Positions 3,568 through 59,659 of a DNA stretch of 64,000 bases are shown piece by piece. The notes under the pieces are model-generated. The model did not search any database. It had not been told where the DNA came from and saw only the letters and a list, made by a program, of their open reading frames with translations. Where the stretch lies: assembly GCA_024224415.1 (NCBI GenBank), contig JAAENK010000324.1, positions 1,564-65,563 of the forward strand, given 5' to 3'. Source of the DNA: Gammaproteobacteria bacterium (GTDB lineage Bacteria > Pseudomonadota > Gammaproteobacteria > GCA-001735895). Made by a program: the position numbers and the translations under genes. How positions within the stretch are numbered: position 1 is the first letter of the stretch; every line of letters starts with the position of its first letter.

Positions 3568-3582
3568 CAATGTAGTCAAATG

Positions 3583-3602
3583 CCCGGCGCAATTGCGCCG
3601 GG
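3583..3602 (+). other. Perfect palindromic hairpin in gmaS-mgsA intergenic region
   Basis: CCCGGCGCAATTGCGCCGGG (10-bp arms, no loop), not followed by a clear T-tract. Confidence 0.5.
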
Positions 3603-3664
3603 TGATATGAATTCTTTAGTGCTGTGTTCGCACAGTAAATTTTTAATCTTAAGAGGAAATACTT

Positions 3665-5427: not shown

Positions 5428-5452
5428 CACGGTTTTTATTGGAGATTAAATA

Positions 5453-18660: not shown

Positions 18661-18686
18661 TTTGTCAATACCTTTGCGCTGACGCC

Positions 18687-21127: not shown

Positions 21128-21308
21128 GCGAAATTATTTATACAAACTCGGCTCACGCATTGGAATATGTAAAGTAGTTACTCAGTAAGTGGTACAACTT
21201 ACTGGCAATTGACCATTTACCCCGCTGAGTCAATGATTTCAACCTTAAAGAGTATATCTGTTCTGCATACTCAATGAAGCTGTATCACGGTCACCGAATT
21301 ACTATTAA

Positions 21309-23534
<2,226 letters not shown>

Positions 23535-23542
23535 GCTAAGCA

Positions 23543-27144: not shown

Positions 27145-27178
27145 CAGCAAAAATGACATTTGTAAGAGGATAAAGTAA

Positions 27179-32558: not shown

Positions 32559-32726
32559 CCGAGAATTACAGGGCTGTTTTATAGACAGCGCCTGTTTTTA
32601 TTGGGTAGTTGAAATAGACCACAAATTATGTCGTTTTTTGAATACTTTCTTCAAATTCCCTCAGTATGATTGGTCGCATTGAGCGAATTGGTACAGCTTG
32701 AAATCAATCAATAAATACCCTGCTAT

Positions 32727-42122: not shown

Positions 42123-42136
42123 CCGAGGAAAATAAC

Positions 42137-42493
42137 ATGAGTGATATGCAAGATTATGCTTCCAGTCTGGCAGATACCGCCAGCCGCAAGTTTGAAACTT
42201 TTTCCTATCTGCCGGAAATGTCGGCGGAACAAACCCGTCAACAGGTCGAATATGTCGTCAGCAAAGGCTGGAACCCGGCGGTTGAACACACCGAGCCGGA
42301 AAATGCCACAAGTTCTTTCTGGTATATGTGGAAGCTACCGATGTTTGGTGAGACCGATGTCGATGCTATTCTCGCCGAAGTCGAGGCCTGTCATGCGGCG
42401 CATCCACAAAATCATGTGCGTCTGGTTGGTTTTGACAACTACGCGCAATCGAAAGGTGCCGAGATGGTCGTCTATCGTGGCAAAGCAGTTTAG
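42137..42493 (+). CDS. cbbS: RuBisCO small subunit (form IA)
   Basis: 118 aa; [28 protein letters not shown]...MWKLPMFG. Confidence 0.9.
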
Positions 42494-42513
42494 ATCTCCT
42501 CGATGGTAAGTTG

Positions 42514-42549
42514 GCTTCTGTTTCATACTCTGGTTCAGAAGCATTTTTT
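42514..42549 (+). terminator. Weak hairpin + T-tract between cbbS and cbbQ (partial terminator/attenuator)
   Basis: GCTTCTG-n14-CAGAAGC followed by ATTTTTTT. Confidence 0.35.
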
Positions 42550-42569
42550 TCGGTATAACGGTTTGAGTC

Positions 42570-43376
42570 ATGAGTGATATCGATACAGAGCAATATTTGA
42601 TCAAGCAGCAACCTTACTATCATGAAGTCGGTGGTGAAGTGGCAATGTATCAGGCCGCCTACGATGTGCGTATGCCAGTGATGCTCAAAGGTCCAACCGG
42701 GTGCGGTAAATCGCGTTTCGTCGAATACATGGCCTGGAAGCTGCAAAAACCATTGATAACCATTGCCTGTAACGAAGACATGACTGCTTCAGATCTGGTC
42801 GGTCGGTTCCTGCTCGATATCAATGGCACCAAATGGCAGGATGGCCCACTCACAGTTGCGGCGCGCATCGGCGCGATTTGTTATCTCGACGAAATCGTTG
42901 AAGCCCGACAGGATACTACAGTGGTGATCCATCCCCTCACCGACCATCGTCGGCAATTGCCACTGGAAAAGAAGGGTGAGTTGGTGAATGCCCACAAAGA
43001 TTTCCAGATTGTGATTTCCTATAATCCCGGTTATCAATCGTTGATGAAGGATTTAAAACAATCTACCAAACAACGTTTCGGCGGCATGGATTTTGATTAT
43101 CCCGATGGAGAAGTGGAGGTCGAAATCGTCGCCCACGAAGGCGGTGTCGAAAAAGCACTCGCTGAAAAACTGGTGCGGGTCGCACATCGTTCGCGTAACC
43201 TGAAAGGCCACGGCCTCGACGAAGGCATGTCGACGCGCTTACTGGTATACGCGGCGCAGTTAATGTCGAAAGGTGTAGATGCTGAGCAAGCCTGTAAAAT
43301 GGCGCTGGTGACACCACTTACCGATGACCCCGATATGCGCGACACGCTCGACGCCGCGGTAGCTACCTACTTTTAG
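42570..43376 (+). CDS. cbbQ: RuBisCO activase CbbQ (MoxR-type AAA+ ATPase)
   Basis: Walker A GPTGCGKS, Walker B CYLDEIVEA, 268 aa; follows cbbLS. Confidence 0.85.
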   Translation: MSDIDTEQYLIKQQPYYHEVGGEVAMYQAAYDVRMPVMLKGPTGCGKSRFVEYMAWKLQKPLITIACNEDMTASDLVGRFLLDINGTKWQDGPLTVAARIGAICYLDEIVEARQDTTVVIHPLTDHRRQLPLEKKGELVNAHKDFQIVISYNPGYQSLMKDLKQSTKQRFGGMDFDYPDGEVEVEIVAHEGGVEKALAEKLVRVAHRSRNLKGHGLDEGMSTRLLVYAAQLMSKGVDAEQACKMALVTPLTDDPDMRDTLDAAVATYF

Positions 43377-43378
43377 CG

Positions 43379-45724
43379 ATGGACTCCGTCGAATTGCTCG
43401 AATACGCCGACTGCATTGGCGATCAGCAGCATCAACACCTCGAAGCACTGCAATCCTCATACCACGAAGCCACGCGGGTAATGTCGGCCAATGGCCTGAG
43501 TAATTATCTCGAAGGCATGCGGGCGATGTGCACGCTGGGGAAAAATCATGATCTGGTGCTGACTTATATCGAAGAAATGCCTGGTGTCGCCAAAGAAGTC
43601 GGTGAAGACATTATTCCCGACATCGTAACAGCGATGATGCATTTGTCGTCACATACTTCGGGTAGCGTGATCACCCTGGTGCTTGCCGAAATGCCACTGG
43701 TCGCACGACGACTGGGTGACGCCGATGTTATTCGGGGTTATCTCAAGCTATTGCACAACCTCGCTGGTAAAGCACCGCGTGGCTTGCGACCAATGATGGA
43801 AAACATGGATGAGTTACTCTCCAAGCTGACCCTGGGTGGCTTGCGGCGCTGGGCCCTGTGGGGCGCGCAGGCGCACGCACGCGATCTCGACGGTCAAATG
43901 GCTTATTTCGCGTTACAAACCGAGTCGGCCAGATCGGTGCTGCAAAAGGAACGCCGTGGAACACTATTTGTCGATAACCAACGTAAGTTGAATTTTTACC
44001 TGCGCGCACTCTGGGGCAGGGCTTTCTTTATGCGTCCCACCTCGGGAGATTATGAAAACCGCGAGGGCCTCAAGCCTTATATCGAAAACCACCAAATTCA
44101 TTTACCAGATGCTTTCGATAGCTTTCATGATATAAGTGGTATAGAAATTTTCCGAGCCAGCGCCGCGCACGCTGCTGCGCATCTGGTTTACACAGCAAAG
44201 ACCATTAGCGGTGAAGGAATATCGGCGGCCCAAATGCTATGCATCAGTCTGTTCGAAGATGCAAGGGTGGAGTACCTGGCGATAAAAGAATTCCCAGGCC
44301 TAAAGAAACTCTGGTCAAGGTTCTATCAGGCAATTGAATTCAGCGAGTTACACGAAACTGTTCAATTGATGACACAGTTATCCAAAACCTTGCTCGATGA
44401 AAATTATGCCGATGCCCCCAGCTTTCTTGTCCAGTCAGCAAAAAATTATCGAAGCCAACTAAACAACAACGCGCAGGACAACCAGATATCTCTAAAAGCA
44501 GGATTAGAGTTTTACCAATTGCTAACCGAGCAGGCGCCCATCCCATCACTCAGAATTCTGCAAGATATCCCAATCCCATACCGGGATGATAATCGATATT
44601 TCTGGGAGTTTGATGAAGATGGTTTTAACAGCGTGGGCAGCGATTACCAGCCAGAACAATACCGCCAGAGCCGCCGTAATGTTGAACTGATGGAAATGGT
44701 TAACACCCTTGATTGTGAACTGGCGGATGATGATGCGCAGGAAGTCTGGACTCTGTCATCGGAATACTGGCTGGATCAGGAAGGCTGCACAATTAACGAA
44801 CTAGAGGGCAAAGAGTCGATCTCGCAACCTTTTCATTACGCCGAGTGGGATTACCACGTACAACTGGCGCGTCCCGACTGGGTGACTTTGGTGGAACGTC
44901 GGCAACCGAAGGGCGATCCGCAGATAATGGACGATATCCTGCAAAAACATAAACCCATCGCCTCGCGTATCAAACATCTGGTCGATGCCATGCAGCCGCA
45001 AGGCATAGTGCGCAAGCGAGGCTATGAAGAAGGTGAAGAACTTGATCTTAATGCAGCAGTGCGGGCGATGATCGACATTCGTCGCGGTATCATGCCCGAT
45101 CCGCGTATTAATATCCGCATCACCCGGCATATTCGCGATCTCGCCATCGTTGTATTGATGGATTTATCCGAGTCGACTAATGACAAGATTGGCGATGAAG
45201 ACAGCACGCAGACTGTATTAAGCCTCACCCGTGAAGCCACCGGGCTACTATCCTGGGCGATCGACGCGATCGGCGATAATTTTGCGGTGCATGGTTTCGC
45301 CTCCGATGGTCGCCACGACGTGCAGTACTATCGTTTCAAGGATTTCAACCAGCGCTATGACGACGAAGCCAAATCACGTATGGCCGGCATGAAAGGCGGT
45401 TTATCCACGCGCATGGGGGCGGCCCTGCGACACGCGGGTGATCACCTGTTAACCCAACAGGCAAGCAAACGATTAGTATTGCTTGTCACCGACGGCGAGC
45501 CCGCCGATATCGATGAGCGCGATCCGCAGTATTTGCGCCACGACGCCAAAAAGGCGGTAGAAGATAATGCCATGAAAGGTGTATACAGCTACTGCCTGAC
45601 GCTGGACCCGAATGCCGATCAATACGTCTCAAGAATATTCGGTGAGAACAATTATTCGATTGTCGATAATGTGGAGCGGTTACCAGAGCGGTTACCAAAT
45701 GTGTTTGCGACCTTGACCGGGTAG
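43379..45724 (+). CDS. cbbO: RuBisCO activase adaptor CbbO (C-terminal VWA domain)
   Basis: 781 aa; C-terminal VWA/MIDAS region (VLMDLSESTND...LVTDGEPADID); start 3 bp after cbbQ stop. Confidence 0.8.
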   Translation: MDSVELLEYADCIGDQQHQHLEALQSSYHEATRVMSANGLSNYLEGMRAMCTLGKNHDLVLTYIEEMPGVAKEVGEDIIPDIVTAMMHLSSHTSGSVITLVLAEMPLVARRLGDADVIRGYLKLLHNLAGKAPRGLRPMMENMDELLSKLTLGGLRRWALWGAQAHARDLDGQMAYFALQTESARSVLQKERRGTLFVDNQRKLNFYLRALWGRAFFMRPTSGDYENREGLKPYIENHQIHLPDAFDSFHDISGIEIFRASAAHAAAHLVYTAKTISGEGISAAQMLCISLFEDARVEYLAIKEFPGLKKLWSRFYQAIEFSELHETVQLMTQLSKTLLDENYADAPSFLVQSAKNYRSQLNNNAQDNQISLKAGLEFYQLLTEQAPIPSLRILQDIPIPYRDDNRYFWEFDEDGFNSVGSDYQPEQYRQSRRNVELMEMVNTLDCELADDDAQEVWTLSSEYWLDQEGCTINELEGKESISQPFHYAEWDYHVQLARPDWVTLVERRQPKGDPQIMDDILQKHKPIASRIKHLVDAMQPQGIVRKRGYEEGEELDLNAAVRAMIDIRRGIMPDPRINIRITRHIRDLAIVVLMDLSESTNDKIGDEDSTQTVLSLTREATGLLSWAIDAIGDNFAVHGFASDGRHDVQYYRFKDFNQRYDDEAKSRMAGMKGGLSTRMGAALRHAGDHLLTQQASKRLVLLVTDGEPADIDERDPQYLRHDAKKAVEDNAMKGVYSYCLTLDPNADQYVSRIFGENNYSIVDNVERLPERLPNVFATLTG

Positions 45725-49218: not shown

Positions 49219-50526
49219 ATGGGATGTCAATATTTCGAACCATGTGAGCATGGCTCGGATAGTTTTACTGTCGATATTCCCAAAGTCACATTTGGTCGTG
49301 GTTGTTTGCAGGAAGCCGGTGCTCGGGCGGCGTCATTGGGTATGTCGCAGGTGGCCTTGTTTACCGATCCATTCCTCAGGGATGGTCCTTATGTGGAAAT
49401 CGTAAGTCAGTCGCTGAAGTTGGCGGGTATCGATTTTGCGGTGTTTTCTGAAATCCGTATCGAAGCCGATGACGCCAGTGTCGAGCGTGGTGCGCGCTTC
49501 GTCGCTGATGGTAACTTCGATGGAATGATTTCGGTTGGTGGTGGTTCGGTGATGGATACTGCGAAGGCGGCGATGCTTTATGCGCTTTATCCGACCGAAG
49601 ACTTCCTCGATTATTTTGCACCGCCACTGGGCGCGGGTAAGGCTATGCCCGGTGCTCTGCTGAGGCATATCGCTTGTCCTACGACTTCTGGCACGGGTTC
49701 GGAGTGCACCAGTATTTCGGTCATCCGTATTAACGAGCTGGATACCAAGTTTGTGCTAGCTAACCCGATTATGCTGGCCGACCAGGCGTTGATCGATCCA
49801 GCCTGTTGCGACAGTCTGCCCCGTAATATCGTTGCGTCTACCGGCTTCGATTTACTCAGTCATGCACTCGAATGTTATACCGCGAAGGCTTACACACAGT
49901 GGGCAAAAATTGAAGATCCGACCAGGCGTCCGTTGATTCAGGGGGCGAATCCCTGGAGCGATCTGGCGGCGCGAAAGGCATTGGAAATTGCTGGCAAGTT
50001 TCTGGTGCGTGGTGTGAATGATGCTGCTGATCAGCAAGCACGCGATCAGCTGAGTTGGGGCGCTTCGCTAGCAGGCATGGCGTTTGGTAATTCGGGTACG
50101 CATCTGGCGCATGCCATGTCATACGGGGTGACACATTTGATGCGAGACATAAGCACCAGGGATTATGCCGTCGAGTCGCCTTTTGTGCCACACGGTATAA
50201 GCGTGGTAGTGTCCGCCCCGGCAATTTTTCGTTATGCTGCCGAGGGTGCGCCAGAACGTCATATTGAAGCGGCTATGTATTTGAATGCAGATATGCAGGG
50301 TGCTGAAGTCGAGGATGCCGGTGAGGTAGTGGCTGGGTGTATTATCGATTTAATGAAACAGACCGATATGCCTAATGGCCTGTCAGGTCTAGGTTTTGGT
50401 GCTGATGATATCAAACCGCTGGCGGCATCTTCGATCCGCCAGGGACGCGCCATCGCCAATGCGCCAAGAGAAACCAACTTACAGGATATCGAAAATATCT
50501 ACGCTGCGGCGTTGAGTTATGATTAA
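49219..50526 (+). CDS. Iron-containing (group III) alcohol dehydrogenase family protein
   Basis: GGGSVMDTAK NAD motif, metal-binding His cluster (GTHLAHAMSYGVTH). Confidence 0.75.
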   Translation: MGCQYFEPCEHGSDSFTVDIPKVTFGRGCLQEAGARAASLGMSQVALFTDPFLRDGPYVEIVSQSLKLAGIDFAVFSEIRIEADDASVERGARFVADGNFDGMISVGGGSVMDTAKAAMLYALYPTEDFLDYFAPPLGAGKAMPGALLRHIACPTTSGTGSECTSISVIRINELDTKFVLANPIMLADQALIDPACCDSLPRNIVASTGFDLLSHALECYTAKAYTQWAKIEDPTRRPLIQGANPWSDLAARKALEIAGKFLVRGVNDAADQQARDQLSWGASLAGMAFGNSGTHLAHAMSYGVTHLMRDISTRDYAVESPFVPHGISVVVSAPAIFRYAAEGAPERHIEAAMYLNADMQGAEVEDAGEVVAGCIIDLMKQTDMPNGLSGLGFGADDIKPLAASSIRQGRAIANAPRETNLQDIENIYAAALSYD

Positions 50527-50542: not shown

Positions 50543-52876
50543 ATGACAAGCAGTAATTGTAGCCTCTGTGATCTTCCTGTTCCCACTACCCTCATCCGGG
50601 GTGGTAACCATCAATTTTGTTGTTATGGATGCCTTAGCGTCTTTGAAATGTTTGGCGAAGATATTTTGAGGAATGAAAAATCAACGACACAAACGCATAA
50701 GATAGAAGTGAAGGATGGTGAGTGCGAATCTTATTTCCGAATCAGGGGAATGCACTGCTCATCCTGTGAAATATTAATTAAAAAATATGCCGAGAAAATC
50801 GAAGGAATTTCTTATGTATCTACCAATTATGCTACTTCTAGTGCCCGAGTAATATTTGACCCCAATATCATTAGCGAGGCAGAGCTACCGAAAAAATTGA
50901 GCATCGCTGGCTACCAGGCATATTCCTATAAAGATGAAGCGTTTGATAGTTGCATTGACGATGATAAAGCACTGCTTAAGGTTATTATCGCCACAGGTTT
51001 AGCTGGACTGGTCATGATGCTTAACCTGGCATTTTTCTATCCCATGGATTTAGGCATAGTTACAAAACAGGAACTCATGCCGCTTGCCTACCTTGTTTTC
51101 CATATTGTACCAATTGTCATGTTTGTGACGACGACTGCACTTGTTTATCTGCTTGGCTTTCCAATTTTACGGGGTGCATTTATTGGCCTGCGAGCTGGTG
51201 CATTGAATATGGATAATCTTCTGGCAATCGCTATTTTATCTGCCTGGGGTTATAGCGTAGGACAACTCATCATCGGTCAACTCGATTTGTATTTCGATGT
51301 CGCGGCAATGATAGTTGGTGTGGTAAGCGTAGGACGTTATTTTGAATATGGAGCAAAAGTAAACGCAACTAAGGAACTCGATGCTCTCTTGAAGAGCTGG
51401 TCTTCGACCATCATTCACCGGTACGTTGATGGCGTAATCAAAGAAGTGACAATTGATGACATAAAACCCTATGATCGGATTATTGTCAGGCAGGGTGAAT
51501 ATATCCCGGTTGATGGACAAATTATCGCTGGTCGGGCCGCGATTGATGAATCGCTTATTACGGGTGAGACATTTCCACTGGATCGAGGTATCGGCGAAAA
51601 TGTGCTGGGTGGTGCGACAGTTGTCGAAGGTGATATCGACATAAAAATCGGAGGGACCGTTACAAGTCAGATCGACAATCTGGTTGATATATTCTGGAAC
51701 CTGCAAAGTTCAAAAGATGGTAGTACAAGTATTGCTGACAAAATTGCTAAAGTTTTTGTGCCAGTAGTATTGTTATTGGCCAGCATGGTTACTGTAATAT
51801 TGCTTTTAAATGGGGCTACACCAACTTATGCACTACTGGCTGGGTTGACTACTTTGATCGTATCCTGCCCCTGTACGTTTGGCCTGGCAACCCCGCTCAC
51901 TACTGCGACTGCGATCAGTACGGCGCTAAAGAAAAAGATTATTGTGACAAGCGCCGATATATTTGAAAAAAATCCAGATTACACAATCGTTGCAATAGAC
52001 AAAACAGGTACGCTTTCGGCAGGAAGAATGCATGTTGTCGACGTGCTCGGTGATCCGCAGACTGCTCCCAATGCAGCAGCAGTTGAACATTATTGCTCAC
52101 ATCCCATTGCCGGGGCTATCGCAAAGCTTGGTGATAAGGCAGAGGTTTCTGATTTAGTCGTTCATCCTGGTAAGGGCGCGGTCGCCATGCTTGATGGCAA
52201 GCGTGTTGCTGTAGGTAGCAGGGCATTATTTGCTTTCCTCGGATGGGATATTCCAGCAGATATTGTTTCGCAAACAAGAAAATACCTGTCTGGTGACTAT
52301 GTTGTTTCCTGTGTTGGTTGGGAATTAAAAGTATACGGTGCCGTTATAACGCAGGATCAACAACGGCCAGAGTGGAAGGCGGTGGTAAGTCGATTAAGAA
52401 ATGACAAACGCGTTATGCTTATTACGGGGGCTGAGCAAGCTGATGGCTATGAGGATTATGTCGATGAAATTTTTACAGGCATTCCGCCGGAAGCGAAAGT
52501 ATCCATTGTCAGACAACTCAAGTCTCCCGGTGATCGTGTCATCATGGTGGGAGATGGCAGCAATGACGCCCCCGCACTGGCAGCCGCAGATCTGGGAATA
52601 GCATTTGGAACTCCCACATCGCTGGCTGCGCAGGCAGCAGATATAGTGATTCCCGGAAATAATCTGGAACGTATTTTTACCGCCCTCGATTTGATCAAAA
52701 TTACCAGGCGCCGTATCAAGCAAAATATTAGCTGGGCTTTTTTATACAATGCAATCGCGATCCCACTTGCGTTAACAGGGCAACTAAGCCCACTGTTTGC
52801 GGCTCTTGCTATGACATCAAGTAGTTTATTGGTGGTGTGGAACTCTTCTCGGGCTTTTGAAGGACTCAATGAGTGA
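50543..52876 (+). CDS. Copper-translocating P1B-type ATPase with CcoI/FixI-type N-terminal Cys-rich domain plus HMA domain
   Basis: N-term CSLCDL...CCYGCLSVFE (C-x2-C...CC-x2-C), HMA GMHCSSCEI, TM CPC (SCPCTFGLATP), DKTGT, GDGSNDAPAL. Confidence 0.85.
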   Translation: MTSSNCSLCDLPVPTTLIRGGNHQFCCYGCLSVFEMFGEDILRNEKSTTQTHKIEVKDGECESYFRIRGMHCSSCEILIKKYAEKIEGISYVSTNYATSSARVIFDPNIISEAELPKKLSIAGYQAYSYKDEAFDSCIDDDKALLKVIIATGLAGLVMMLNLAFFYPMDLGIVTKQELMPLAYLVFHIVPIVMFVTTTALVYLLGFPILRGAFIGLRAGALNMDNLLAIAILSAWGYSVGQLIIGQLDLYFDVAAMIVGVVSVGRYFEYGAKVNATKELDALLKSWSSTIIHRYVDGVIKEVTIDDIKPYDRIIVRQGEYIPVDGQIIAGRAAIDESLITGETFPLDRGIGENVLGGATVVEGDIDIKIGGTVTSQIDNLVDIFWNLQSSKDGSTSIADKIAKVFVPVVLLLASMVTVILLLNGATPTYALLAGLTTLIVSCPCTFGLATPLTTATAISTALKKKIIVTSADIFEKNPDYTIVAIDKTGTLSAGRMHVVDVLGDPQTAPNAAAVEHYCSHPIAGAIAKLGDKAEVSDLVVHPGKGAVAMLDGKRVAVGSRALFAFLGWDIPADIVSQTRKYLSGDYVVSCVGWELKVYGAVITQDQQRPEWKAVVSRLRNDKRVMLITGAEQADGYEDYVDEIFTGIPPEAKVSIVRQLKSPGDRVIMVGDGSNDAPALAAADLGIAFGTPTSLAAQAADIVIPGNNLERIFTALDLIKITRRRIKQNISWAFLYNAIAIPLALTGQLSPLFAALAMTSSSLLVVWNSSRAFEGLNE

Positions 52877-52897
52877 GTCCTTCAATCTATTCCGCAA

Positions 52898-52918
52898 GCG
52901 TTCCTGAGCCAGGAACGC
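52898..52918. terminator. Hairpin between convergent ATPase and oxidase subunit I genes
   Basis: GCGTTCCTG-agc-CAGGAACGC perfect 9-bp stem; no T-tract on either strand. Confidence 0.4.
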
Positions 52919-52940
52919 AATAGACGTATCCTTAGTTTAT

Positions 52941-54440
52941 CTAAAATTCAAGCGCTCTGGATTTAGTCAAGCTCATAAAATACAGGTAAAATGCATAGAT
53001 AAGCCCTGCACCAAAAACTAGCATCAGTGCACCCCAGATGAACCAGTCGCTTTCCCATGCTCCATTCCTGCGTGGCATTCCAGCCGCACCAGCAGCCATG
53101 AAAGTATAGAATAAGCCGATGTAGGCAAGGAAAAAGTACTTGATACACTTTCTTGCCAGATTGTCATTTATGATGCGATTAGTCATTAATGGATAATGGT
53201 AGTAAAGCATTCCCATCCAGATTGCGCTTATGGCAATTAATACAACCATGGCGTGACCGCCTGCCCACACAGTGCCGTGTAGTTTGAAATTCCAGGCCAC
53301 GTTACTGATAACAATGGCTGAAACACCGTCTAATATATACATCACAAACCCACCAAGCATTAACATCAGAGCTGGGGATGCGACGATGCCGTGTTTCCAA
53401 ATTGTCGCCAGAATGGTGAATATTGTTAACGCAGCACCCATCGCCGTGGCATAGCTCATGAAATTGCCATGATATGCGAATGTCGACGGTAAGGCTGGAT
53501 ACATAGTAAAGAAATGATGGAAAAAGGAAGTGAGCGATGTGACCAATAATATCCATAGCGCCAGTTGAGCAATTCTGTCGCTATAGAGCTTGCGCGCGCC
53601 ATCGGCCAGACAGAGTGGTAAGGTGGCATAGACAGCGCCGATAACCATAAGCGCCATTGCTTCCATTAAATTGTGCGCAAAAATATAGAATACAAATTCA
53701 AACACAACGGGTTTCGCTGCCCAGCCAATCATTGAGGCTGGCAGAATTCCATACAAATGCAGTAGCAGGGAACCAGCTACCATTAATAAAGGAGTGCCGA
53801 CAACCAGTAGCACTAATACACCCATGACCATGCCCATCATGCCGGGGTCGTTTAACGAGCGCTCTGCCAACTGCAGGTTTTCATCTTTTTCATCAAAAAA
53901 AGCCATCTTAAGAATCTGGATAGGGTAGAGCAGGATCATGGAAATCAGCACCAGAGCGATGCCTGTAAAACCAAGAATCAATACCCACATGTCCCACTGT
54001 CCGGTTTGCACCCCAACCACAGGCAATGGGAACATTACGGTATAGGTAACATGAAAACCGGCCAGTACTGCGAGGGTAAGTAACAGGCCGCCGACATTCA
54101 TAAATATGTAAAACAATGCGACTAACGGACCGTCTGCTCTTTTACCCAGACAACCACCCGCGCGATGTATGCTCATAGCCACCATTAGCTGAAATGCGAA
54201 TGGGAATGCCATAGCCGCGCCATGCAGTGTTATGTTTTGATAATACCAGTTTGACCCCAAATCAAGGAATTGAATTGCTGGCATGGTCCAACCTAATATG
54301 ACCGCTATCGTGAACCAGATAAAACAGGTCATTGACATTAGCGCAGGCCATGCATTGATGGGGTTTAATTCATTGTCTTCGAGCCTGAACATGCTCCCGA
54401 AAAATGGTGTGTTTTCAATTATTCTATGGGCAACAGACAT
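52941..54440 (-). CDS. Heme-copper oxidase superfamily subunit I, divergent (NOR-like active-site features)
   Basis: 499 aa, about 12 TM; helix-II-like ITLHGAAMAF, FAHNLME (H-x3-E), FFHHFF His pair, and HGTVWAGGHAM where the canonical H-x-H reads H-A-M. Confidence 0.6.
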   Translation of the reverse strand: MSVAHRIIENTPFFGSMFRLEDNELNPINAWPALMSMTCFIWFTIAVILGWTMPAIQFLDLGSNWYYQNITLHGAAMAFPFAFQLMVAMSIHRAGGCLGKRADGPLVALFYIFMNVGGLLLTLAVLAGFHVTYTVMFPLPVVGVQTGQWDMWVLILGFTGIALVLISMILLYPIQILKMAFFDEKDENLQLAERSLNDPGMMGMVMGVLVLLVVGTPLLMVAGSLLLHLYGILPASMIGWAAKPVVFEFVFYIFAHNLMEAMALMVIGAVYATLPLCLADGARKLYSDRIAQLALWILLVTSLTSFFHHFFTMYPALPSTFAYHGNFMSYATAMGAALTIFTILATIWKHGIVASPALMLMLGGFVMYILDGVSAIVISNVAWNFKLHGTVWAGGHAMVVLIAISAIWMGMLYYHYPLMTNRIINDNLARKCIKYFFLAYIGLFYTFMAAGAAGMPRRNGAWESDWFIWGALMLVFGAGLIYAFYLYFMSLTKSRALEF

Positions 54441-54461
54441 GTTGGCCTCCTCAAAAAGTTA

Positions 54462-55013
54462 TTAGTTACTCGCAACTGTCAGCGTGGTTTTCATTGTATG
54501 GTGTGCTATGCCACAATACTCCAGGCACCGGACAATATACTCTCCGGGTTCGGTGAAGGTATGAACAAGTGTATTAGCTGTTTCCAGTCCAGGCATGAGC
54601 ATCATGGTGAAGATTTGTTGGCCATCTGGATGAATGATCGCAAAACTGTGCATGGTGTCAGCACTGGTTGCCGAAAAACGAACCGGCTCACCGACTCGTA
54701 AGTTTGTGTCGCTTATATCGAAAGCCCAGGATCTGGCTTCCACAGTCACTTCTTTCGCATTCCCTGTGCCGGCTTCAATGACTGTTGGCATGTATTGAAT
54801 GCTGGCAACATTGACGACGATAAAGGCGATTATTGTTAATCCAACCCAGGCCCACTTGGTAGATGAGTATTTGCTTGCCTCGGTTTTACCCGGTGTTGAG
54901 TCAACGAATGCCTTTTTATTAACTATACTAAAAAACACAATCAGGAAAGGGATTTGAAACATCAGCATTACGATGAATGCTCCCCAACCAGTGGTATATA
55001 TAAAATCAATCAT
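54462..55013 (-). CDS. Heme-copper oxidase subunit II with CuA centre (cupredoxin)
   Basis: Two N-terminal TM helices; HSFAI; complete CuA motif CLEYCGIAHHTM (C-x-E-x-C-G-x2-H-x2-M); 21 bp upstream of subunit I. Confidence 0.7.
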   Translation of the reverse strand: MIDFIYTTGWGAFIVMLMFQIPFLIVFFSIVNKKAFVDSTPGKTEASKYSSTKWAWVGLTIIAFIVVNVASIQYMPTVIEAGTGNAKEVTVEARSWAFDISDTNLRVGEPVRFSATSADTMHSFAIIHPDGQQIFTMMLMPGLETANTLVHTFTEPGEYIVRCLEYCGIAHHTMKTTLTVASN

Positions 55014-55038
55014 GATTTAGCCCCTCAATTTAATTCGT

Positions 55039-55647
55039 TTAGAAAACTTTATTTTTATAAGTTAGTTTTGATGATCTTGAGTCGATATAGGCAGTTAGCT
55101 CTGGAGAGAAGCCATCATAAGGTTCTATGCCCAGACTCTGGATTTGTTCTCTGATGCTTTTTAAATCACCTTCATTGGCACCAGACTCAACGATAGAAGA
55201 GACAAATCCCGCGAACTGAATGGCTGGCCAACCGTCATCCTTTGATAACTCGATATGAATAAAATCAAGTCCAAAAAAATGATGCGTTTCATCTTCCACG
55301 CGACCAAACATATGGTTGCCGCAGTCGCGACAGACATGACGTTGAATGGGCGCGCTTTCGTCAAGTATTTTTAGCTTGTCGGCATTTTTAGTGACCTCTA
55401 GCTTGTCACGTGGCACGACTGCAACCTGAGAAAACAGAGCACCCTCAGGTTTCCAGCACTGTGTGCATCCACAAAGATGGTTATGTGCAGCCGGAGCAGT
55501 GATTTTTATGACAACCGGGTTTTTATCACATTTGCAGGAAAGTGTTCCGCCGGGTTGTGGTTTATTGTTGAGATAGCCCCAAAGGCCCTTTTTTGCAGGT
55601 CGAGACTTAATCCCTGACTCAACCTCAGGATGTAATGGGTGTGGCAT
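55039..55647 (-). CDS. gfa: S-(hydroxymethyl)glutathione synthase (glutathione-dependent formaldehyde-activating enzyme)
   Basis: Matches Paracoccus Gfa as I recall it (GGTLSCKCDKNPVVIKI..AHNHLCGCTQCWKPEGALFSQVAVVPRD...PIQRHVCRDCGNHMFGR...AGFVSSIVESG), Zn-binding Cys pattern. Confidence 0.85.
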   Translation of the reverse strand: MPHPLHPEVESGIKSRPAKKGLWGYLNNKPQPGGTLSCKCDKNPVVIKITAPAAHNHLCGCTQCWKPEGALFSQVAVVPRDKLEVTKNADKLKILDESAPIQRHVCRDCGNHMFGRVEDETHHFFGLDFIHIELSKDDGWPAIQFAGFVSSIVESGANEGDLKSIREQIQSLGIEPYDGFSPELTAYIDSRSSKLTYKNKVF

Positions 55648-55888
55648 TGAATTCCCCCTTAATATTATTGGTTTTGCCTGGTCAATGGCTAGGTGGCGCT
55701 GGCATTGTAACTATGTGATATTTAGGGAGGTTTTGCTAATTTTGTATCGTTATTATGCAAAAAACCCACAAATACATAGCTATCGATTAATGTGTTTGAC
55801 CACTAATCTGCATCGTGATTAATAATTGTAACGACGTGCCGCGAGTATAGAACGAATGTTCATTCACTGTCAATGTACAGGAATAATG

Positions 55889-56524
55889 CTAGTTTGTTGA
55901 AGATTTGTAGTCTTTTGATTCAAGTGAAATATCTCCAGACATGCCCTGCCACATACAATTGATATGCTCATCATAGAGGTTTGTCAGAGGCTCATCGATC
56001 AGCCCGTCGAGACGAAGATGTATCAATCTAATCGCACCACCAAATATACTTGCGGCTACGACCCAGGGGCTGCCGTTGCGGATTTCACCTGCTTCGATCC
56101 CCTGTAAGACGATATCTCTCATCATGATAAATGGGGTTGAACTACATATGGGTGGCTCACTTGGCAGGAACTCCCTGTGCTTTGAGTGCAGCATATAGGA
56201 AATGATATTACGTCGGGTTTCGCTATATTCGAATAAGAGCGCAATGATTTTATTGCAACGTTCTCGATTAGTCATTTCATCTTCAAGTACAGCATTAACC
56301 ATTTCTTCAAATTCGTTTATCAGGTGATAATAAAGTGCTTTGGCAACCCCTTCTTTGCCACCGAAATGTTTATAGATCGAGCCAATACTGACGCTGGATT
56401 CCTTCTGTACATCGTGCACAGAGACATTGTGGAAACCGTGCTCTACAAAAAGATCGAGTGCGGCAGTTAAGACGCGGCAATCCAATGGTTCTGGCTCAGG
56501 GGCGGACTTAGTTAAATATGGCAT
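55889..56524 (-). CDS. TetR-family transcriptional regulator
   Basis: N-terminal TetR HTH (FVEHGFHNVSVHDVQKESSVSIGSIYKHFGGKEG); divergent from frmA. Confidence 0.75.
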   Translation of the reverse strand: MPYLTKSAPEPEPLDCRVLTAALDLFVEHGFHNVSVHDVQKESSVSIGSIYKHFGGKEGVAKALYYHLINEFEEMVNAVLEDEMTNRERCNKIIALLFEYSETRRNIISYMLHSKHREFLPSEPPICSSTPFIMMRDIVLQGIEAGEIRNGSPWVVAASIFGGAIRLIHLRLDGLIDEPLTNLYDEHINCMWQGMSGDISLESKDYKSSTN

Positions 56525-56628
56525 ATCTACTCAGGATACAAACAGGTTCTTGACGAGAACGACGATTCATTCTAGTCTACAGCGCTTGATTATTTTGTCC
56601 ATATGTTCATTCGCCAAGGTGCCTTTTT

Positions 56629-57744
56629 ATGAAATGCAAAGCCGCAGTCGCATGGGAACCCAATAAACCCCTGCAAATTGAAGAAGTCGAAGTCGAAGGC
56701 CCTCGTGAAGGCGAGGTCCTGTTGAAAGTCCATGCCTCAGGTGTCTGTCATACTGACGCATTCACGCTGTCGGGTGAAGATCCGGAAGGTGCATTCCCCT
56801 GCATTCTTGGTCACGAAGGCGGTTGTGAAGTGGTCGAATGTGGATCGGGTGTGAAAGACTTAAAGCCTGGCGATCACGTCATTCCGTTGTATATCCCCGA
56901 ATGCCAGGAACCTGGCTGCGGTTACTGTAGTTCGGATAAGTCCAACCTCTGTCAATCAATCGCCGGAACTATCTGGACTGGTTTTATGCCAGATGGCACC
57001 AGGCGATTCAAGGTCGGTGGTAAGGAAATCTACCATTACATGGGTTGTTCGACATTTTCTGAGTATACGGTCGTACCCGAAATCGCACTGGCGAAAATAG
57101 CCAAAGAAGCGCCGCTTGATATGGCTAGTCTGCTCGGTTGTGGTGTGACTACTGGCATAGGCGCAGTTATTAACACTGCAAAGGTTCATGCAGGTTCATC
57201 GGTTGCAGTTTTTGGACTCGGTACCGTTGGATTGTCGGTGGTTCAGGGTGCGGTGATGGCCAAAGCCGAGCGCATCATCGCCATTGATATTAATCCTGGT
57301 AAGGAAGCTATTGCACGCTCGCTTGGCGCTACTGATTTTGTGAATCCGAAAGATGTTGGTGGCTCGATCCCTGAATTTCTCCAGGAAATGACTGACGGTG
57401 GCGTGGATTATTCGTTTGACTGTACCGGTAATACCCAGGTTATGCGCGATGCATTGGAATGTACGCATATGGGGTGGGGTGTCTCGACTATTATTGGCGT
57501 TGCTGGTGCGGGGGAAGAAATTAAAACACGACCATTTAATCTGGTTGTGGGTCGTCGTTGGATAGGTTCGGCTTTCGGTGGTGTCAAGGGGCGCAGCCAG
57601 ATCCCAGCTATGGTTGATCAGTATATGAAAGGTGATATCGAACTCGACAGTCTGGTAACGCATACCATGCCACTTGAAGAAATTAATACGGCTTTTGACC
57701 TGATGCATGAAGGCAAGAGTATTAAATCGATTATCACGTTTTAG
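56629..57744 (+). CDS. frmA: S-(hydroxymethyl)glutathione dehydrogenase / class III alcohol dehydrogenase
   Basis: [22 protein letters not shown]...[27 protein letters not shown] near-canonical FrmA/AdhC; 371 aa. Confidence 0.9.
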
Positions 57745-57756
57745 TTAGCGGTCGAC

Positions 57757-58596
57757 ATGAAAGAAATAGAGAGTATTAAAGAGAGCGGTGGCTTTTTAAA
57801 TCGCTATACCCATGCCTCGCAACAATGCCAGTGTGAAATGACTTTTTCGGTCTACCTGCCACCCCAGGCTAGTAGTGGCAAAGTTCCGACTTTGTACTGG
57901 CTTTCCGGCTTAACCTGCACCGATGACAATGCGCGTACCAAGGCTGGTGCGCAGCGTTATGCTTCCGAGCATGGCATCGCCATCGTGTTTCCCGATACCA
58001 GTCCGCGCGGCGAGAATGTGCCCGATGAATCCGAACGTTACGACCTCGGTCAGGGTGCGGGATTTTATGTCAACGCGACGCAATCACTCTGGTCGAAACA
58101 TTATCGAATGTACGACTATGTGGTTAACGAGTTGCCCACACTTGTCGAGGCCAATCTACCGCTGTTACCGGGCGTTAAGTCCATTAGCGGTCATTCCATG
58201 GGTGGGCATGGGGCGTTAATTTGTGGTTTGAAGAATCCCGATACGTTTCGTTCGGTTTCGGCTTTTGCCCCGATCACCAACCCGGTTAATTGCGGCTGGG
58301 GGCAAGGTTGTTTTGGCCTTTACCTGGGTGAAGATAAAAATGATTGGCAAGCCTACGATGCAACCAGTCTGGTCAATGCAGGTGCGAAAGTTAACGATAT
58401 CCTGATCGATCAGGGCGATGCCGATGAGTTTTTACACGAAGGTCAGCTGCTACCAGAAAATTTCCAGGCTGCCTGCGAAGCGCAAGGGCAATCCTGTACC
58501 ATACGTATGCAGGCTGGGTACGACCACAGTTATCACTTTATCGCCAGTTTTCTTGGTGAACACTTTGAATTTCATGCGAAGTATTTAAAAGTGTAA
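57757..58596 (+). CDS. frmB: S-formylglutathione hydrolase (esterase D family)
   Basis: 279 aa; GHSMGGHGAL nucleophile; typical FghA/FrmB length; 12 bp after frmA. Confidence 0.85.
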   Translation: MKEIESIKESGGFLNRYTHASQQCQCEMTFSVYLPPQASSGKVPTLYWLSGLTCTDDNARTKAGAQRYASEHGIAIVFPDTSPRGENVPDESERYDLGQGAGFYVNATQSLWSKHYRMYDYVVNELPTLVEANLPLLPGVKSISGHSMGGHGALICGLKNPDTFRSVSAFAPITNPVNCGWGQGCFGLYLGEDKNDWQAYDATSLVNAGAKVNDILIDQGDADEFLHEGQLLPENFQAACEAQGQSCTIRMQAGYDHSYHFIASFLGEHFEFHAKYLKV

Positions 58597-58627: not shown

Positions 58628-59362
58628 TTATTTATCACCTCTGTCCTCTAGTGGTTCAATTTTTTTGATCTCGCCACCTGCAGCCAGTGTTAAGGCTTTT
58701 TCGATTGCTCCCGGGGCGCACATGATGCTAAAAAAGGTGGCCCCAGTATCACTGGAGAGCATTGGTAAATGTGGCCAGCTTATGGCGATACGAAATCGGG
58801 CATAAAGGGCTTCGACGTTTGATCCATAGACCAGCATTTCATATGGCAGATGTGCTGTATGTCGAGGTGAGCTTTTATCGATTTTACCCATGATGTATCG
58901 ATCGGCGCTACAGTCGTCTTCATCCTCGCCTGCTAGTGCAACACCGAAAAGCGTCATTTGCTTGCCTTCGGTGTCGGTTCCGAGGTCAAGTCGGTAAACC
59001 TTGTGAGCACCAGAGGTGCCTTCTTCAAGATGCTTTTCTATTGTGCTGATTGCAGTTTGATGATCATCGTATCTGGCAAGCTTGCTCGGGTCATCGAAAT
59101 ATTCCATCATAAATGTATAGTGGTACTTGCGCATATCGGCTCCGGTGAGTACTTTATCACCGCTTCCAAACTGTTGTCTGGCGTTAAATGTTGATGCCAG
59201 GGTCTGACTTGTAGTTTGTAAATTGTCGTTCAAACGATAGGCATTCGACCAGTACAGCGGGTTGGTATAAGCCACCTGTACATCGCCGTCGAGTTCAGTA
59301 ATCGAAATCCGTAAAGCACCACCGTAACCACCGCGTTCTGACTGCGTGGCAGTATTTTTCAT
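58628..59362 (-). CDS. Hypothetical protein (244 aa); same frame as upstream 83-aa ORF
   Basis: ORF from ATG 59362; separated from ORF 59408..59659 only by TAA (59408-59410) plus 15 in-frame sense codons. Confidence 0.35.
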   Translation of the reverse strand: MKNTATQSERGGYGGALRISITELDGDVQVAYTNPLYWSNAYRLNDNLQTTSQTLASTFNARQQFGSGDKVLTGADMRKYHYTFMMEYFDDPSKLARYDDHQTAISTIEKHLEEGTSGAHKVYRLDLGTDTEGKQMTLFGVALAGEDEDDCSADRYIMGKIDKSSPRHTAHLPYEMLVYGSNVEALYARFRIAISWPHLPMLSSDTGATFFSIMCAPGAIEKALTLAAGGEIKKIEPLEDRGDK

Positions 59363-59407: not shown

Positions 59408-59659
59408 TTATTCCCCCAGTATTTCAAAACCTGCGGTTACCAGTTTGGCGCGGGTCGTTTCCAGTGTTTTACTAAAGCCAGCAGCACTCGAAGTCGCCAA
59501 CATAAAGGGTTTAACCTGATCTTCGGCCTTAAGTCCGAATGACGCAAATGTCAACAAAATGCTGAGAATGGGAAGCAGAACTTTGGGTCTGGACATGATA
59601 TCTTCAGGAAGGACTGTTAGGAACCAATAAGCAAAGGCCATGTGACTCGCCGGGTACAT
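59408..59659 (-). pseudogene. Signal-peptide-bearing DUF302-like N-terminal fragment, possibly the 5' part of an interrupted gene
   Basis: MSRPKVLLPILSILLTFASFGLKA leader then FSKTLETTRAKLVTAGFEILGE (DUF302-like start) ending in TAA; reading frame continues into the 58628..59362 ORF. Confidence 0.3.

What the first reader, a model, noticed from the sequence alone, without database searches (positions are those of the whole stretch)
52941..55647. Divergent CuA-containing heme-copper oxidase with NOR-like H-x3-E motif and an H-A-M in place of the helix-X H-x-H, apparently co-transcribed with gfa
Seen in subunit II (54462..55013): two TM helices, HSFAI, and a complete CuA motif CLEYCGIAHHTM. Seen in subunit I (499 aa): helix-II-like His (ITLHGAAMAF), FAHNLME (a His followed four residues later by Glu, as in NorB FeB ligands His207/Glu211), an FFHHFF His pair, and HGTVWAGGHAM. 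The last aligns by eye to Thermus ba3 HNTAWVPGHFH and bovine HDTYYVVAHFH, so the second His of the near-universal H-x-H (low-spin heme ligand) appears replaced by Met. There is no Tyr four residues after the first active-site His. Upstream on the same strand, 25 bp away, is gfa (formaldehyde-activating enzyme); a CcoI-type Cu ATPase converges on the locus. Inference: a member of one of the poorly characterised CuA-containing NOR-like HCO families (eNOR/sNOR/gNOR/CuANOR-like). It may be NO- or O2-reducing, possibly with a His/Met low-spin heme. Its genetic linkage to formaldehyde detoxification is unusual.
Basis: partly seen in the sequence, partly recalled or inferred. Interest (0 to 1): 0.8.

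Follow-up and report, generated by a model that had tools for sequence, protein, structure and literature searches.

The report
nNOR-type heme-copper reductase beside formaldehyde genes
This is a real two-subunit member of the already described but biochemically untested nNOR family of predicted nitric-oxide reductases; the new point is that it sits under a shared repressor-type DNA site with genes that oxidise formaldehyde through glutathione.

Summary
Subunit I (52941..54440, -), CuA subunit II (54462..55013, -) and gfa (55039..55647, -) are intact and tightly spaced. HMMER alignments to solved oxidases put Glu260 at the position of the cross-linked Tyr. They put Met398 at the position of the second helix-X His. 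Both are invariant in 119 homologues.

An exhaustive search found the E+M signature only in the five best full-length cluster representatives. The next-best carry H-x3-N and H-x-H (sNOR type). So this is a new member of a known kind. NO reduction remains a prediction.

Not found in the papers searched:
- In 80 related loci the enzyme is almost always beside a Cu(I) P-type ATPase.
- About a third of loci carry gfa, adhC or fghA, in at least six gene orders across Alpha-, Beta- and Gammaproteobacteria.
- No denitrification gene recurs in five or more loci.
- A 16-bp palindrome overlaps the gfa promoter and recurs before adhC, suggesting one TetR regulon.

The parts
52941..54440 (-). nNOR-type heme-copper oxidoreductase subunit I, 499 aa. 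Proposed ligands: H73 and M398 for the low-spin heme, H396 for the high-spin heme, H256/H308/H309 plus E260 for the non-heme metal.
54462..55013 (-). Subunit II, 183 aa: two N-terminal hydrophobic helices and a cupredoxin domain with all the residues that align with the ba3 CuA ligand positions (H122, C163, C167, H171, M174; E165 between the Cys).
   Evidence: Best solved relative is Thermus ba3 subunit II, E 4e-10. The motif C-x-E-x-C-x3-H-x2-M is present in 57/57 family subunit II proteins. Always directly upstream of subunit I.
55039..55647 (-). gfa, S-(hydroxymethyl)glutathione synthase; first gene of the putative gfa-II-I operon.
   Evidence: TIGR02820 244.7 bits, above the cut-off. 25-bp gap to subunit II. 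Same adjacency in nine related species-level loci and L002.
55844..55873 (-). Sigma-70-like promoter TTGACA-18-TATACT (11 of 12), about 190 nt upstream of the gfa start codon.
   Evidence: This is a consensus match only; the total number of promoter-like sites in the region is what shuffles give.
55850..55865 (.). Perfect 16-bp palindrome GAACGAATGTTCATTC (consensus GAAYGAAYRTTCRTTC) inside the promoter spacer and -10 region; putative repressor operator.
   Evidence: 20 sites with at most 2 mismatches in 1.23 Mb against 3.6 expected. 17 of them are in the gamma clade; those whose position was checked lie in promoter regions of gfa, adhC/TetR and the Cu-ATPase.
55889..56524 (-). TetR-family regulator, candidate binder of the palindrome.
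   Evidence: Pfam TetR_N. Homologues of 51-62% identity in L008, L013, L015, L052 and L068. In L052 it lies directly upstream of subunit II and divergent from adhC.
56557..56572 (.). Second, imperfect copy of the palindrome (GAACGACGATTCATTC, 2 mismatches) in the TetR/adhC divergent intergenic region.
56629..57744 (+). adhC/frmA, S-(hydroxymethyl)glutathione dehydrogenase; homologues of this enzyme also act as an S-nitrosoglutathione reductase.
   Evidence: TIGR02818 605 bits, above the cut-off. Dual activity per PMC4776306.
57757..58596 (+). fghA/estD, S-formylglutathione hydrolase.
   Evidence: TIGR02821 407 bits, above the cut-off.
50543..52876 (+). Convergent P1B-type Cu(I) ATPase with an N-terminal Cys-rich motif, an HMA domain and a CPC motif; likely copper supply for the CuA centre (and any CuB).
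   Evidence: Homologue present in 74 of 80 related loci.
52898..52918 (.). 9-bp stem, 3-nt loop hairpin (GCGTTCCTG-AGC-CAGGAACGC) in the 64-bp gap between the convergent ATPase and subunit I; possible bidirectional terminator with no T-run.
   Evidence: Read directly from the sequence. Not picked up by the terminator scan.

Best explanation
The locus encodes a two-subunit heme-copper oxidoreductase of the nNOR family.

Proposed mechanism. It is inferred from homology, and no step has been measured for any nNOR:
1. A periplasmic one-electron donor reduces the binuclear CuA centre of subunit II.
2. Electrons pass to a low-spin heme held by His73 (helix II) and Met398 (helix X). According to the published description of the family, the Met ligand likely raises the heme's potential by about 150 mV.
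3. They then reach the binuclear site: a high-spin heme on His396 next to a non-heme metal bound by His256, His308, His309 and Glu260.
4. The cross-linked Tyr needed for four-electron O2 reduction is replaced by Glu, as in cNOR/qNOR. The expected chemistry is therefore 2 NO + 2 e- + 2 H+ -> N2O + H2O.

Cofactor supply (inferred):
- Copper comes from the adjacent P1B ATPase.
- Where ctaB is linked in relatives, the hemes may be O- or A-type rather than B-type.

Expression (inferred from sequence only):
- gfa, subunit II and subunit I form one transcript from a promoter whose -10 region overlaps a 16-bp palindrome.
- A weaker copy of the palindrome lies in the TetR/adhC intergenic region.
- The enzyme is therefore probably co-repressed with the glutathione-dependent formaldehyde pathway (gfa, adhC, fghA) by the TetR protein encoded between them.

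Physiological role (inferred): a detoxifying or auxiliary reductase switched on together with formaldehyde/nitrosothiol disposal, rather than a step of a classical nir-nor-nos pathway.
For: Family assignment:
- Ligand mapping by HMMER to solved oxidases.
- H73, H256-N-L-M-E260, H308, H309, H396-x-M398 and R457/R458 are invariant in 28 aligned members, and the HNLME and H-x-M motifs are present in all 119 full-length members.
- Subunit II is ba3-like, with the residues aligning to all ba3 CuA ligand positions.
- In an exhaustive search of 1.84 billion cluster representatives, the E+M signature occurs only in the five top-scoring full-length proteins (835 and 350-404 bits). These include a Halobacteria archaeon protein.
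- After a gap to about 95 bits come H-x3-N / H-x-H proteins. They include the Ca. Methylomirabilis cluster, an organism that the paper says has sNOR.
- These are the traits published for nNOR.

Operon and regulon:
- Gaps of 25 and 21 bp, no terminator-like site, and an 11/12 promoter upstream of gfa.
- Operator-like palindrome at the gfa promoter and in the TetR/adhC region. It is conserved before gfa, adhC and the ATPase in L002, L005, L008, L013, L014 and L015.

Functional coupling:
- adhC, fghA or gfa lie within 8 kb in 26 of 80 loci, in at least six gene orders across three proteobacterial classes. These include gfa-II-I-adhC (L006, L010-L012) and gfa-adhC-fghA-II-I-ATPase (L007, L009).
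- The Cu-ATPase is present in 74 of 80 loci and UbiA/heme O synthase in 30.
Against: - No nNOR has been purified or assayed. NO reduction rests on active-site analogy.
- No nir, nos or nor accessory gene appears in any neighbour cluster shared by 5 or more loci.
- FNR/NnrR-type boxes occur upstream in only 6 of 80 loci.
- The linked regulators (TetR, IclR, PAS kinase + LuxR-type response regulator) are not known NO sensors.
- The neighbours (gfa, formate dehydrogenase, methanethiol oxidase-SCO1-MauG) point to formaldehyde rather than NO.
- Whether the B-site metal is Fe or Cu cannot be told from sequence.
- The promoter and operator are consensus or conservation inferences. The second window site has 2 mismatches.
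Confidence: 0.6

Rival explanations
1. Nitrosative-stress island. The enzyme is an NO reductase, and the real link to its neighbours is NO rather than formaldehyde. AdhC would act here as S-nitrosoglutathione reductase and FghA/EstD as its partner. Membrane NO removal and cytoplasmic GSNO removal would then be co-regulated.
For: AdhC homologues reduce GSNO, and adhC-estD operons in Neisseria and Haemophilus sit beside the regulator NmlR (PMC4776306). The nNOR site is cNOR-like. A shared operator-like palindrome lies before gfa-nNOR and adhC.
Against: The linked genes include gfa, which acts on formaldehyde and glutathione. In relatives they also include NAD-dependent formate dehydrogenase (L002) and methanethiol oxidase (L060, L074), which belong to formaldehyde metabolism. 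The window itself holds many genes resembling methyl-group demethylation and C1 genes. No NsrR, NorR or NnrR regulator appeared among the neighbour families shared by five or more loci.
Confidence: 0.25
2. It is an oxygen-reducing terminal oxidase of an unusual B-like type. It would serve aerobic oxidation of C1 compounds and work without the canonical Tyr.
For: It has a CuA subunit, a linked Cu-ATPase and a linked heme O synthase, as terminal oxidase loci do. There is no denitrification context and FNR-type boxes are rare. Its best sequence hits among solved structures are A-family oxidases.
Against: Glu replaces the cross-linked Tyr at H+4, and no Tyr sits at the helix VII position six residues before the His pair that I recalled for cbb3. 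According to PMC11214002, O2 reduction in this superfamily requires that Tyr. The nearest relatives (sNOR-like, H-x3-N) also lack it.
Confidence: 0.12
3. The gfa/adhC/fghA neighbourhood is coincidental. These would be mobile accessory genes gathering in the same flexible region, with no functional or regulatory coupling to the enzyme.
For: Only about a third of loci show the linkage. The deep-branching sister clade (L085-L087) has only subunits II and I in housekeeping context. The second operator copy in the window is imperfect.
Against: A single-copy gene should fall within 8 kb of another in roughly 0.4% of genomes of 4 Mb (my estimate). The observed figures are 21/80 for adhC and 22/80 for gfa, in at least six different orders in three classes. 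These include arrangements where the enzyme genes lie between gfa and adhC. The conserved palindrome lies before both transcription units.
Confidence: 0.15

Closest known systems
nNOR family of heme-copper oxidoreductases (Murali et al. 2024 PNAS, PMC11214002; first named in bioRxiv 10.1101/592808)
   Same: 3 His + Glu at the binuclear site with no Tyr. His/Met at the low-spin heme position. CuA subunit II. sNOR-type proteins as next-nearest relatives. Found in Bacteria and Archaea, and rare (the paper counts 32 GTDB genomes; 128 species representatives were found here).
   Different: Nothing at the level of the enzyme. The recurrent linkage to the Cu-ATPase, heme O synthase and the glutathione-formaldehyde genes, and the operator-like palindrome, are not mentioned in the main text of the papers I could read. 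Their supplements were not available.
[not shown]
   Same: His-x3-Glu on helix VI plus the His pair on helix VII, and no Tyr, so the same predicted first shell for the non-heme metal. Same overall fold.
   Different: There is no NorC cytochrome c subunit; electrons enter through CuA instead. The low-spin heme is His/Met rather than bis-His. The residue four positions after Glu260 (from memory, a second conserved Glu in cNOR) is Leu or Ile here. Sequence identity in the structural alignment is about 12%. The literature proposes a cytoplasmic proton channel for nNOR.
sNOR / bNOR (qCuANOR of Bacillus azotoformans)
   Same: CuA subunit II, subunit I of about 500 aa, and no Tyr. These are the nearest relatives by profile score (about 95 bits, 18-23% identity).
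   Different: They have Asn, not Glu, at H+4, and a canonical H-x-H on helix X (14/14 sequences). Other nNOR-specific residues that differ: D371 against Gly, G389 against Asn, T312 against Met, Y368 against Trp.
B-family oxygen reductase (Thermus thermophilus ba3)
   Different: At the H+4 position, where ba3 carries the cross-linked Tyr (residue identity recalled from memory), this protein has Glu. At the helix-X position, where ba3 has bis-His ligation, it has Met. The ba3 subunit I is not detected by the family profile at E <= 1.

Membership tests
nNOR | Heme-copper oxidoreductase subunit I fold with the canonical ligand helices | tested here: met
   [not shown]
nNOR | Same active-site residues as cNOR/qNOR: three His plus a Glu, and no cross-linked Tyr | tested here: met
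   H256, H308 and H309 align with bovine H240, H290 and H291. E260 aligns with Y244. HNLME is present in 119/119 homologues. No Tyr six residues before the His pair, the helix VII position I recalled for cbb3.
nNOR | Low-spin heme ligated by His and Met (helix X H-x-M) | tested here: met
   M398 aligns with bovine H378. H-x-M is found in all core members and all four sister-clade members; H-x-H is found in all 14 sNOR-like relatives. Actual ligation cannot be tested here.
nNOR | CuA-containing subunit II homologous to that of the B family | tested here: met
   Best solved hit is ba3 subunit II, with H, C, C, H and M aligned. The motif is present in 57/57 family members.
nNOR | Closest relative is sNOR; derived from within or near the B family | tested here: inconclusive
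   The next-best full-length relatives are H-x3-N / H-x-H proteins, including the Ca. Methylomirabilis cluster. However, the subunit I profile hits A-family structures first and does not hit ba3 at E <= 1. No phylogeny was built.
nNOR | Conserved proton channel in the K-channel region | tested here: inconclusive
   Clade-specific invariant polar residues exist (T312, Y323, S329, T346, D371). The model coordinates could not be inspected, so no path was traced.
nNOR | Best score with the authors' curated nNOR HMM | not testable with these tools
   The HMM set of Murali et al. is not in any available library. NCBIfam and Pfam give only generic COX1/CtaD hits.
nNOR | NO reductase activity | not testable with these tools
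   Not measured for any family member according to PMC11214002 and PMC13592168.
cNOR | Cytochrome c subunit NorC as electron entry; bis-His low-spin heme | tested here: not met
   The partner subunit is a CuA cupredoxin with no CxxCH motif. Helix X has Met in place of the second His.
sNOR / bNOR | Asn four residues after the first active-site His; canonical H-x-H | tested here: not met
   Glu260 and Met398 here, against Asn and His in 14/14 sNOR-like sequences. The defining residue for sNOR was inferred from those sequences and from the Methylomirabilis assignment, not read from the paper's figure.
B-family O2 reductase | Cross-linked His-Tyr cofactor (Tyr at H+4 on helix VI) | tested here: not met
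   Glu at H+4, invariant.
Glutathione-dependent formaldehyde oxidation pathway (Gfa, AdhC, FghA) | All three enzymes present and above curated equivalog cut-offs | tested here: met
   TIGR02820 244.7 against 234.6; TIGR02818 605.3 against 544; TIGR02821 407 against 281.7.

The most novel reading that the evidence does not exclude
In Proteobacteria the nNOR enzyme is not a denitrification enzyme. It is a dedicated component of a glutathione-dependent C1 (formaldehyde/nitrosothiol) detoxification regulon. It would be co-repressed with gfa, adhC, fghA and its own copper pump through a 16-bp operator. Its physiological substrate or role would be tied to formaldehyde-generating metabolism, such as methylated amines or methanethiol oxidation. 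Examples are removal of NO, or of another small oxidant, that would otherwise poison thiol-dependent formaldehyde oxidation, or respiration that tolerates formaldehyde and sulfide.
Probability: 0.3. Interest if true: 0.65.

Novelty: new member of a known kind. Interest (0 to 1): 0.42.

Why it matters
nNOR is one of four predicted NO reductase families that are now counted in N2O budgets from metagenomes. None of its members has been assayed.

Its conserved partners are a copper pump, heme O synthase and the glutathione-formaldehyde pathway, and not nir/nos genes. This gives a concrete, testable clue to when the enzyme is made and what it is for. It also cautions against scoring nNOR genes as denitrification capacity by default.

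The work names cultured carriers with informative gene orders: Maritimibacter fusiformis HY14 and Sedimenticola selenatireducens DSM 17993. Sulfuritalea loci also carry the linkage, but all of those recovered here are MAGs. It also provides a candidate operator/repressor pair for induction experiments.

For enzymology, a CuA / His-Met heme / 3 His-Glu enzyme would be a natural hybrid between oxidase-type electron entry and a cNOR-type catalytic site.

Tried and rejected
- An exact look-up of the window's subunit I found no record. The nearest record, L001, differs by two residues.
- Sequence and profile searches of solved structures gave only distant A-family hits and no ba3 or NOR hit for subunit I. 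They could not classify the family.
- An Rfam scan of 52500..56800 found nothing credible in the long gfa leader. The only hit was a 15-bit psRNA6 match against a 60-bit threshold.
- The terminator scan found no site between the operon genes and none in the convergent gap.
- The FNR/NnrR box scan showed weak enrichment only: 6 of 80 loci.
- Searches of papers for a reported link between formaldehyde genes and nNOR or heme-copper enzymes found none. The supplements of the nNOR paper were not held.
- I considered and rejected a degenerate or pseudogenised oxidase, because conservation is strong across 119 homologues.
- I also rejected cNOR, sNOR or ba3 membership, because defining residues are not met.
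- Sister-clade contexts (L085-L087) showed neither formaldehyde genes nor a copper pump. The linkage is therefore confined to the proteobacterial clade.
Full report
**1. What is in the sequence**

The minus strand carries three tightly packed ORFs:
- gfa, 55039..55647
- a 183-aa protein, 54462..55013
- a 499-aa protein, 52941..54440

The gaps are 25 and 21 bp, and each gene is preceded by a purine-rich ribosome-binding site.

- The 499-aa protein is a heme-copper oxidoreductase subunit I: Pfam COX1 130.7 bits, E 8.8e-38. It scores far below every NCBIfam oxidase equivalog, for example CtaD at 83.8 bits against a 670.75 cut-off.
- The 183-aa protein just passes Pfam COX2. Its best solved relative is subunit II of Thermus ba3 (1ehk_B, E 4e-10). 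His122 and C163-L-E-Y-C-G-I-A-H-H-T-M174 align with the residues at the ba3 CuA ligand positions.
- gfa passes the curated equivalog cut-off.

Around these genes lie four others:
- a TetR regulator, 55889..56524 (-)
- adhC/frmA, 56629..57744 (+), and fghA, 57757..58596 (+), divergently transcribed and both above their equivalog cut-offs
- a convergent P1B heavy-metal ATPase, 50543..52876 (+), with an HMA domain and a CPC motif

**2.

| This protein | Bovine oxidase | Role in the bovine enzyme |
|---|---|---|
| H73 | helix II His | low-spin heme ligand |
| H256 | H240 | CuB ligand |
| E260 | Y244 | cross-linked Tyr |
| H308/H309 | H290/H291 | CuB ligands |
| H396 | H376 | high-spin heme ligand |
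| M398 | H378 | low-spin heme ligand |

(The role column is from my knowledge of the bovine structure; the alignment itself gives only the residue correspondence.)

An AlphaFold model built on 28 family sequences has pLDDT 82 and pTM 0.85. It places these residues in helices II, VI, VII and X of a 12-helix bundle. In a 28-sequence alignment all of these residues are invariant, as are R457/R458, which I take to be the heme-propionate arginines. A motif count over 119 full-length homologues of 53-95% identity found HNLME and H-x-M in every one.

**3. What it is**

The literature already describes exactly this combination.
- Murali et al. 2024 (PMC11214002) state that nNOR is related to the B family and encodes a CuA subunit homologue. 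[quoted passage not shown] - The FIND preprint adds that nNOR and sNOR are closely related.

I tested this with an exhaustive profile search of 1.84 billion cluster representatives, and aligned the full-length hits.
- Only five proteins carry the signature H73/H256/E260/H308/H309/H396/M398, and they are the five best scorers.
- One is the 50% representative of the proteobacterial clade (835 bits). The other four are sister sequences of 33-36% identity (350-404 bits). One of these comes from a Halobacteria archaeon.
- After a gap to about 95 bits come proteins with H-x3-N and a canonical H-x-H. They include the Ca. Methylomirabilis/NC10 cluster, an organism that the paper says carries sNOR. Tyr-containing oxidases follow.
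- Glu against Asn and Met against His separate the two groups without exception.

**4. Distribution**

A scan of one genome per GTDB species found 128 carriers.
- Alphaproteobacteria: Rhizobiaceae, Methyloligellaceae, Rhodobacteraceae including the isolate Maritimibacter fusiformis HY14, and Rhodospirillaceae.
- Betaproteobacteria: Sulfuritalea, Rhodocyclaceae and Burkholderiaceae.
- Gammaproteobacteria: Sedimenticola, and a clade of uncultured marine Gammaproteobacteria at 73-82% identity to which the window belongs.

A contig of GCA_024449835.1 (L001) is 99.74% identical to the window over 11 kb.

**5. Genomic context across the family**

I ran tblastn with the window's neighbours against 80 distinct loci, and clustered all flanking ORFs de novo.
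- Subunit II is always directly upstream of subunit I.
- A homologous Cu-ATPase is present in 74 of 80 loci. Most of the exceptions are truncated contigs.
- A UbiA-family gene, which I read as heme O synthase (ctaB) from its position in an oxidase cluster, is present in 30 loci. A DsbD_2-type membrane protein is present in 26.
- No nir, nos or nor accessory gene appears in any cluster shared by five or more loci.
- FNR/NnrR-type boxes occur upstream in only 6 of 80 loci.

Genes of glutathione-dependent formaldehyde oxidation recur instead: adhC in 21 loci, gfa in 22, and any of the three in 26. The gene orders differ:
- window, L008, L013: gfa-II-I, convergent ATPase, TetR, divergent adhC-fghA
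- L007, L009: gfa-adhC-fghA-II-I-ATPase, all on one strand
- L006, L010-L012: gfa-II-I-adhC
- L002: fghA and adhC divergent from gfa-II-I-ATPase-thioredoxin-like protein-UbiA family gene, with NAD-dependent formate dehydrogenase next to fghA
- L052: adhC divergent from TetR-II-I
- Sulfuritalea and relatives: II-I-ATPase-(SCO1)-adhC-fghA with gfa opposite. In seven loci a methanethiol oxidase (SBP56) is nearby; in L060 it sits with SCO1 and MauG
- Maritimibacter: II-I-gfa or II-I-adhC-gfa

By my estimate, a given single-copy gene lies within 8 kb of another in about 0.4% of 4-Mb genomes. Repeated linkage in shuffled orders across three classes therefore argues for functional coupling. The archaeal-looking sister clade has only subunits II and I in housekeeping surroundings, so the coupling is a trait of the proteobacterial clade.

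**6. Regulation**

The best promoter match in the region (TTGACA-18-TATACT, 11/12) lies upstream of gfa at 55873..55844 on the minus strand. No terminator-like site separates the three genes.

Inside that promoter sits a perfect 16-bp palindrome, GAACGAATGTTCATTC (55850..55865). A copy with two mismatches lies in the TetR/adhC intergenic region (56557..56572).

The same motif (GAAYGAAYRTTCRTTC) is found in related loci:
- upstream of gfa in L005, L008, L013 and L015; a further copy in L014 lies about 1.5 kb upstream of gfa
- three times in the adhC/gfa intergenic region of L002; in two of these copies the motif runs straight into a TATAAT hexamer
- upstream of adhC in L008 and L013
- upstream of the ATPase or ubiA-ATPase unit in L008 and L015

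In all, 20 sites with at most 2 mismatches occur in 1.23 Mb where 3.6 are expected, and 17 of them are in the gamma clade. I infer a repressor operator, most simply for the adjacent TetR protein, that ties gfa-nNOR, adhC-fghA and the copper pump into one regulon. This is inference from conservation; nothing was measured.

**7. Mechanism, and how sure**

Shown at sequence level:
- a CuA entry site
- a His/Met position for the low-spin heme
- a 3 His + Glu site beside the high-spin heme
- no Tyr

Inferred:
- electrons flow from a periplasmic donor to CuA, then to the low-spin heme, then to the binuclear centre;
- the reaction is 2 NO to N2O, as in cNOR.

O2 reduction is unlikely, because the paper holds that the Tyr cofactor is required for it in this superfamily. 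Family membership I put near 0.9. NO reduction as the physiological reaction I put near 0.55-0.6, because no nNOR has been assayed and the context is not that of denitrification.

The neighbours allow two readings of the physiological role.
- A formaldehyde reading is favoured by gfa, formate dehydrogenase and methanethiol oxidase. It is also favoured by the window's own content of genes resembling methyl-group and C1 metabolism genes: glutamine synthetase-like, amidotransferase, GXGXG and GltB-like genes at 2098..6793; a GcvT-like gene; an OYE/Fe-S pair with ETF at 20024..28938; and formate-THF ligase at 32727..34412.
- A nitrosative-stress reading rests on AdhC homologues also being GSNO reductases (PMC4776306).

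The ligand of the TetR protein would decide between them.

**8. Novelty and verdict**

The enzyme is a new member of a known, described, but uncharacterised family.

Three things are not in the papers I could read:
- the family-wide copper pump and heme O synthase linkage;
- the recurrent, rearranged linkage to glutathione-dependent formaldehyde oxidation;
- the shared operator-like palindrome.

These are moderate-interest leads to the physiological role of nNOR. They are also a caution against counting nNOR genes as denitrification potential.

Noticed in passing
L001:9349-10848 (GCA_024449835.1, JAANTA010480846.1) versus window 52941..54440: A 99.74% identical contig of another assembly encodes Arg instead of the active-site His256 (CAT to CGT), plus I423T. 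This is either a sequencing or assembly error, or a natural variant that should inactivate the metal site.
   Followed up: partly
window 40704..45724 (with LysR at 39690..40610, -): RuBisCO large subunit followed by CbbQ (AAA+) and a VWA protein that I take to be a CbbO-like activase subunit, with a divergent LysR regulator. The organism appears able to fix CO2.
   Followed up: partly
window 2098..6793, 20024..28938, 31242..34412: A dense set of genes that resemble methyl-group and C1 metabolism genes: two glutamine-synthetase-like genes, an amidotransferase/GXGXG/GltB-like trio (from memory, the layout of the N-methylglutamate pathway), a GcvT-like aminomethyltransferase, an OYE-type flavoprotein with an Fe-S CCG protein and ETF beta/alpha (DgcAB-like, also from memory), and formate-THF ligase. 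All would generate or handle formaldehyde-level C1 units. No equivalog cut-off was reached.
   Followed up: partly
window 49219..50526 (+): An iron-type alcohol dehydrogenase ends 17 bp before the Cu-ATPase start and looks co-transcribed with it. None of the 80 related loci has this gene beside the pump. Several relatives have UbiA/heme O synthase in that position instead.
   Followed up: partly
L060:3646-6929 and L074:234-1577 (Sulfuritalea MAGs): In L060 a methanethiol oxidase (SBP56)-SCO1-MauG cluster lies divergently next to the nNOR operon. In L074 an SBP56 homologue lies about 6 kb upstream, and adhC-fghA-gfa lie on the other side. Together they form a copper-dependent, formaldehyde-producing and formaldehyde-consuming island around the enzyme.
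   Followed up: partly
L025:9646 and L032:6228 (Rhodospirillaceae MAGs): The same 16-bp palindrome (GAATGAACATTCACTC, 1 mismatch) occurs just downstream of subunit I in two alphaproteobacterial loci that have no TetR homologue within reach.
   Followed up: no
window 58628..59362 (-) and 59408..59659 (-): A 244-aa ORF with no Pfam match and an 83-aa ORF with a hydrophobic N-terminus lie directly after fghA on the opposite strand. Both are also called as genes in L001.
   Followed up: no
window 37432..38610 (-) and 38656..39684 (+): Two divergent paralogues of the Porphyromonas-type peptidyl-arginine/agmatine deiminase family sit side by side.
   Followed up: no
window 17977..19844 (-): A sensor kinase whose C-terminal half resembles NarX/NarQ nitrate/nitrite sensors (222 bits, well below the cut-off), with an unannotated 227-aa ORF downstream. 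It lies about 33 kb from the nNOR locus.
   Followed up: no
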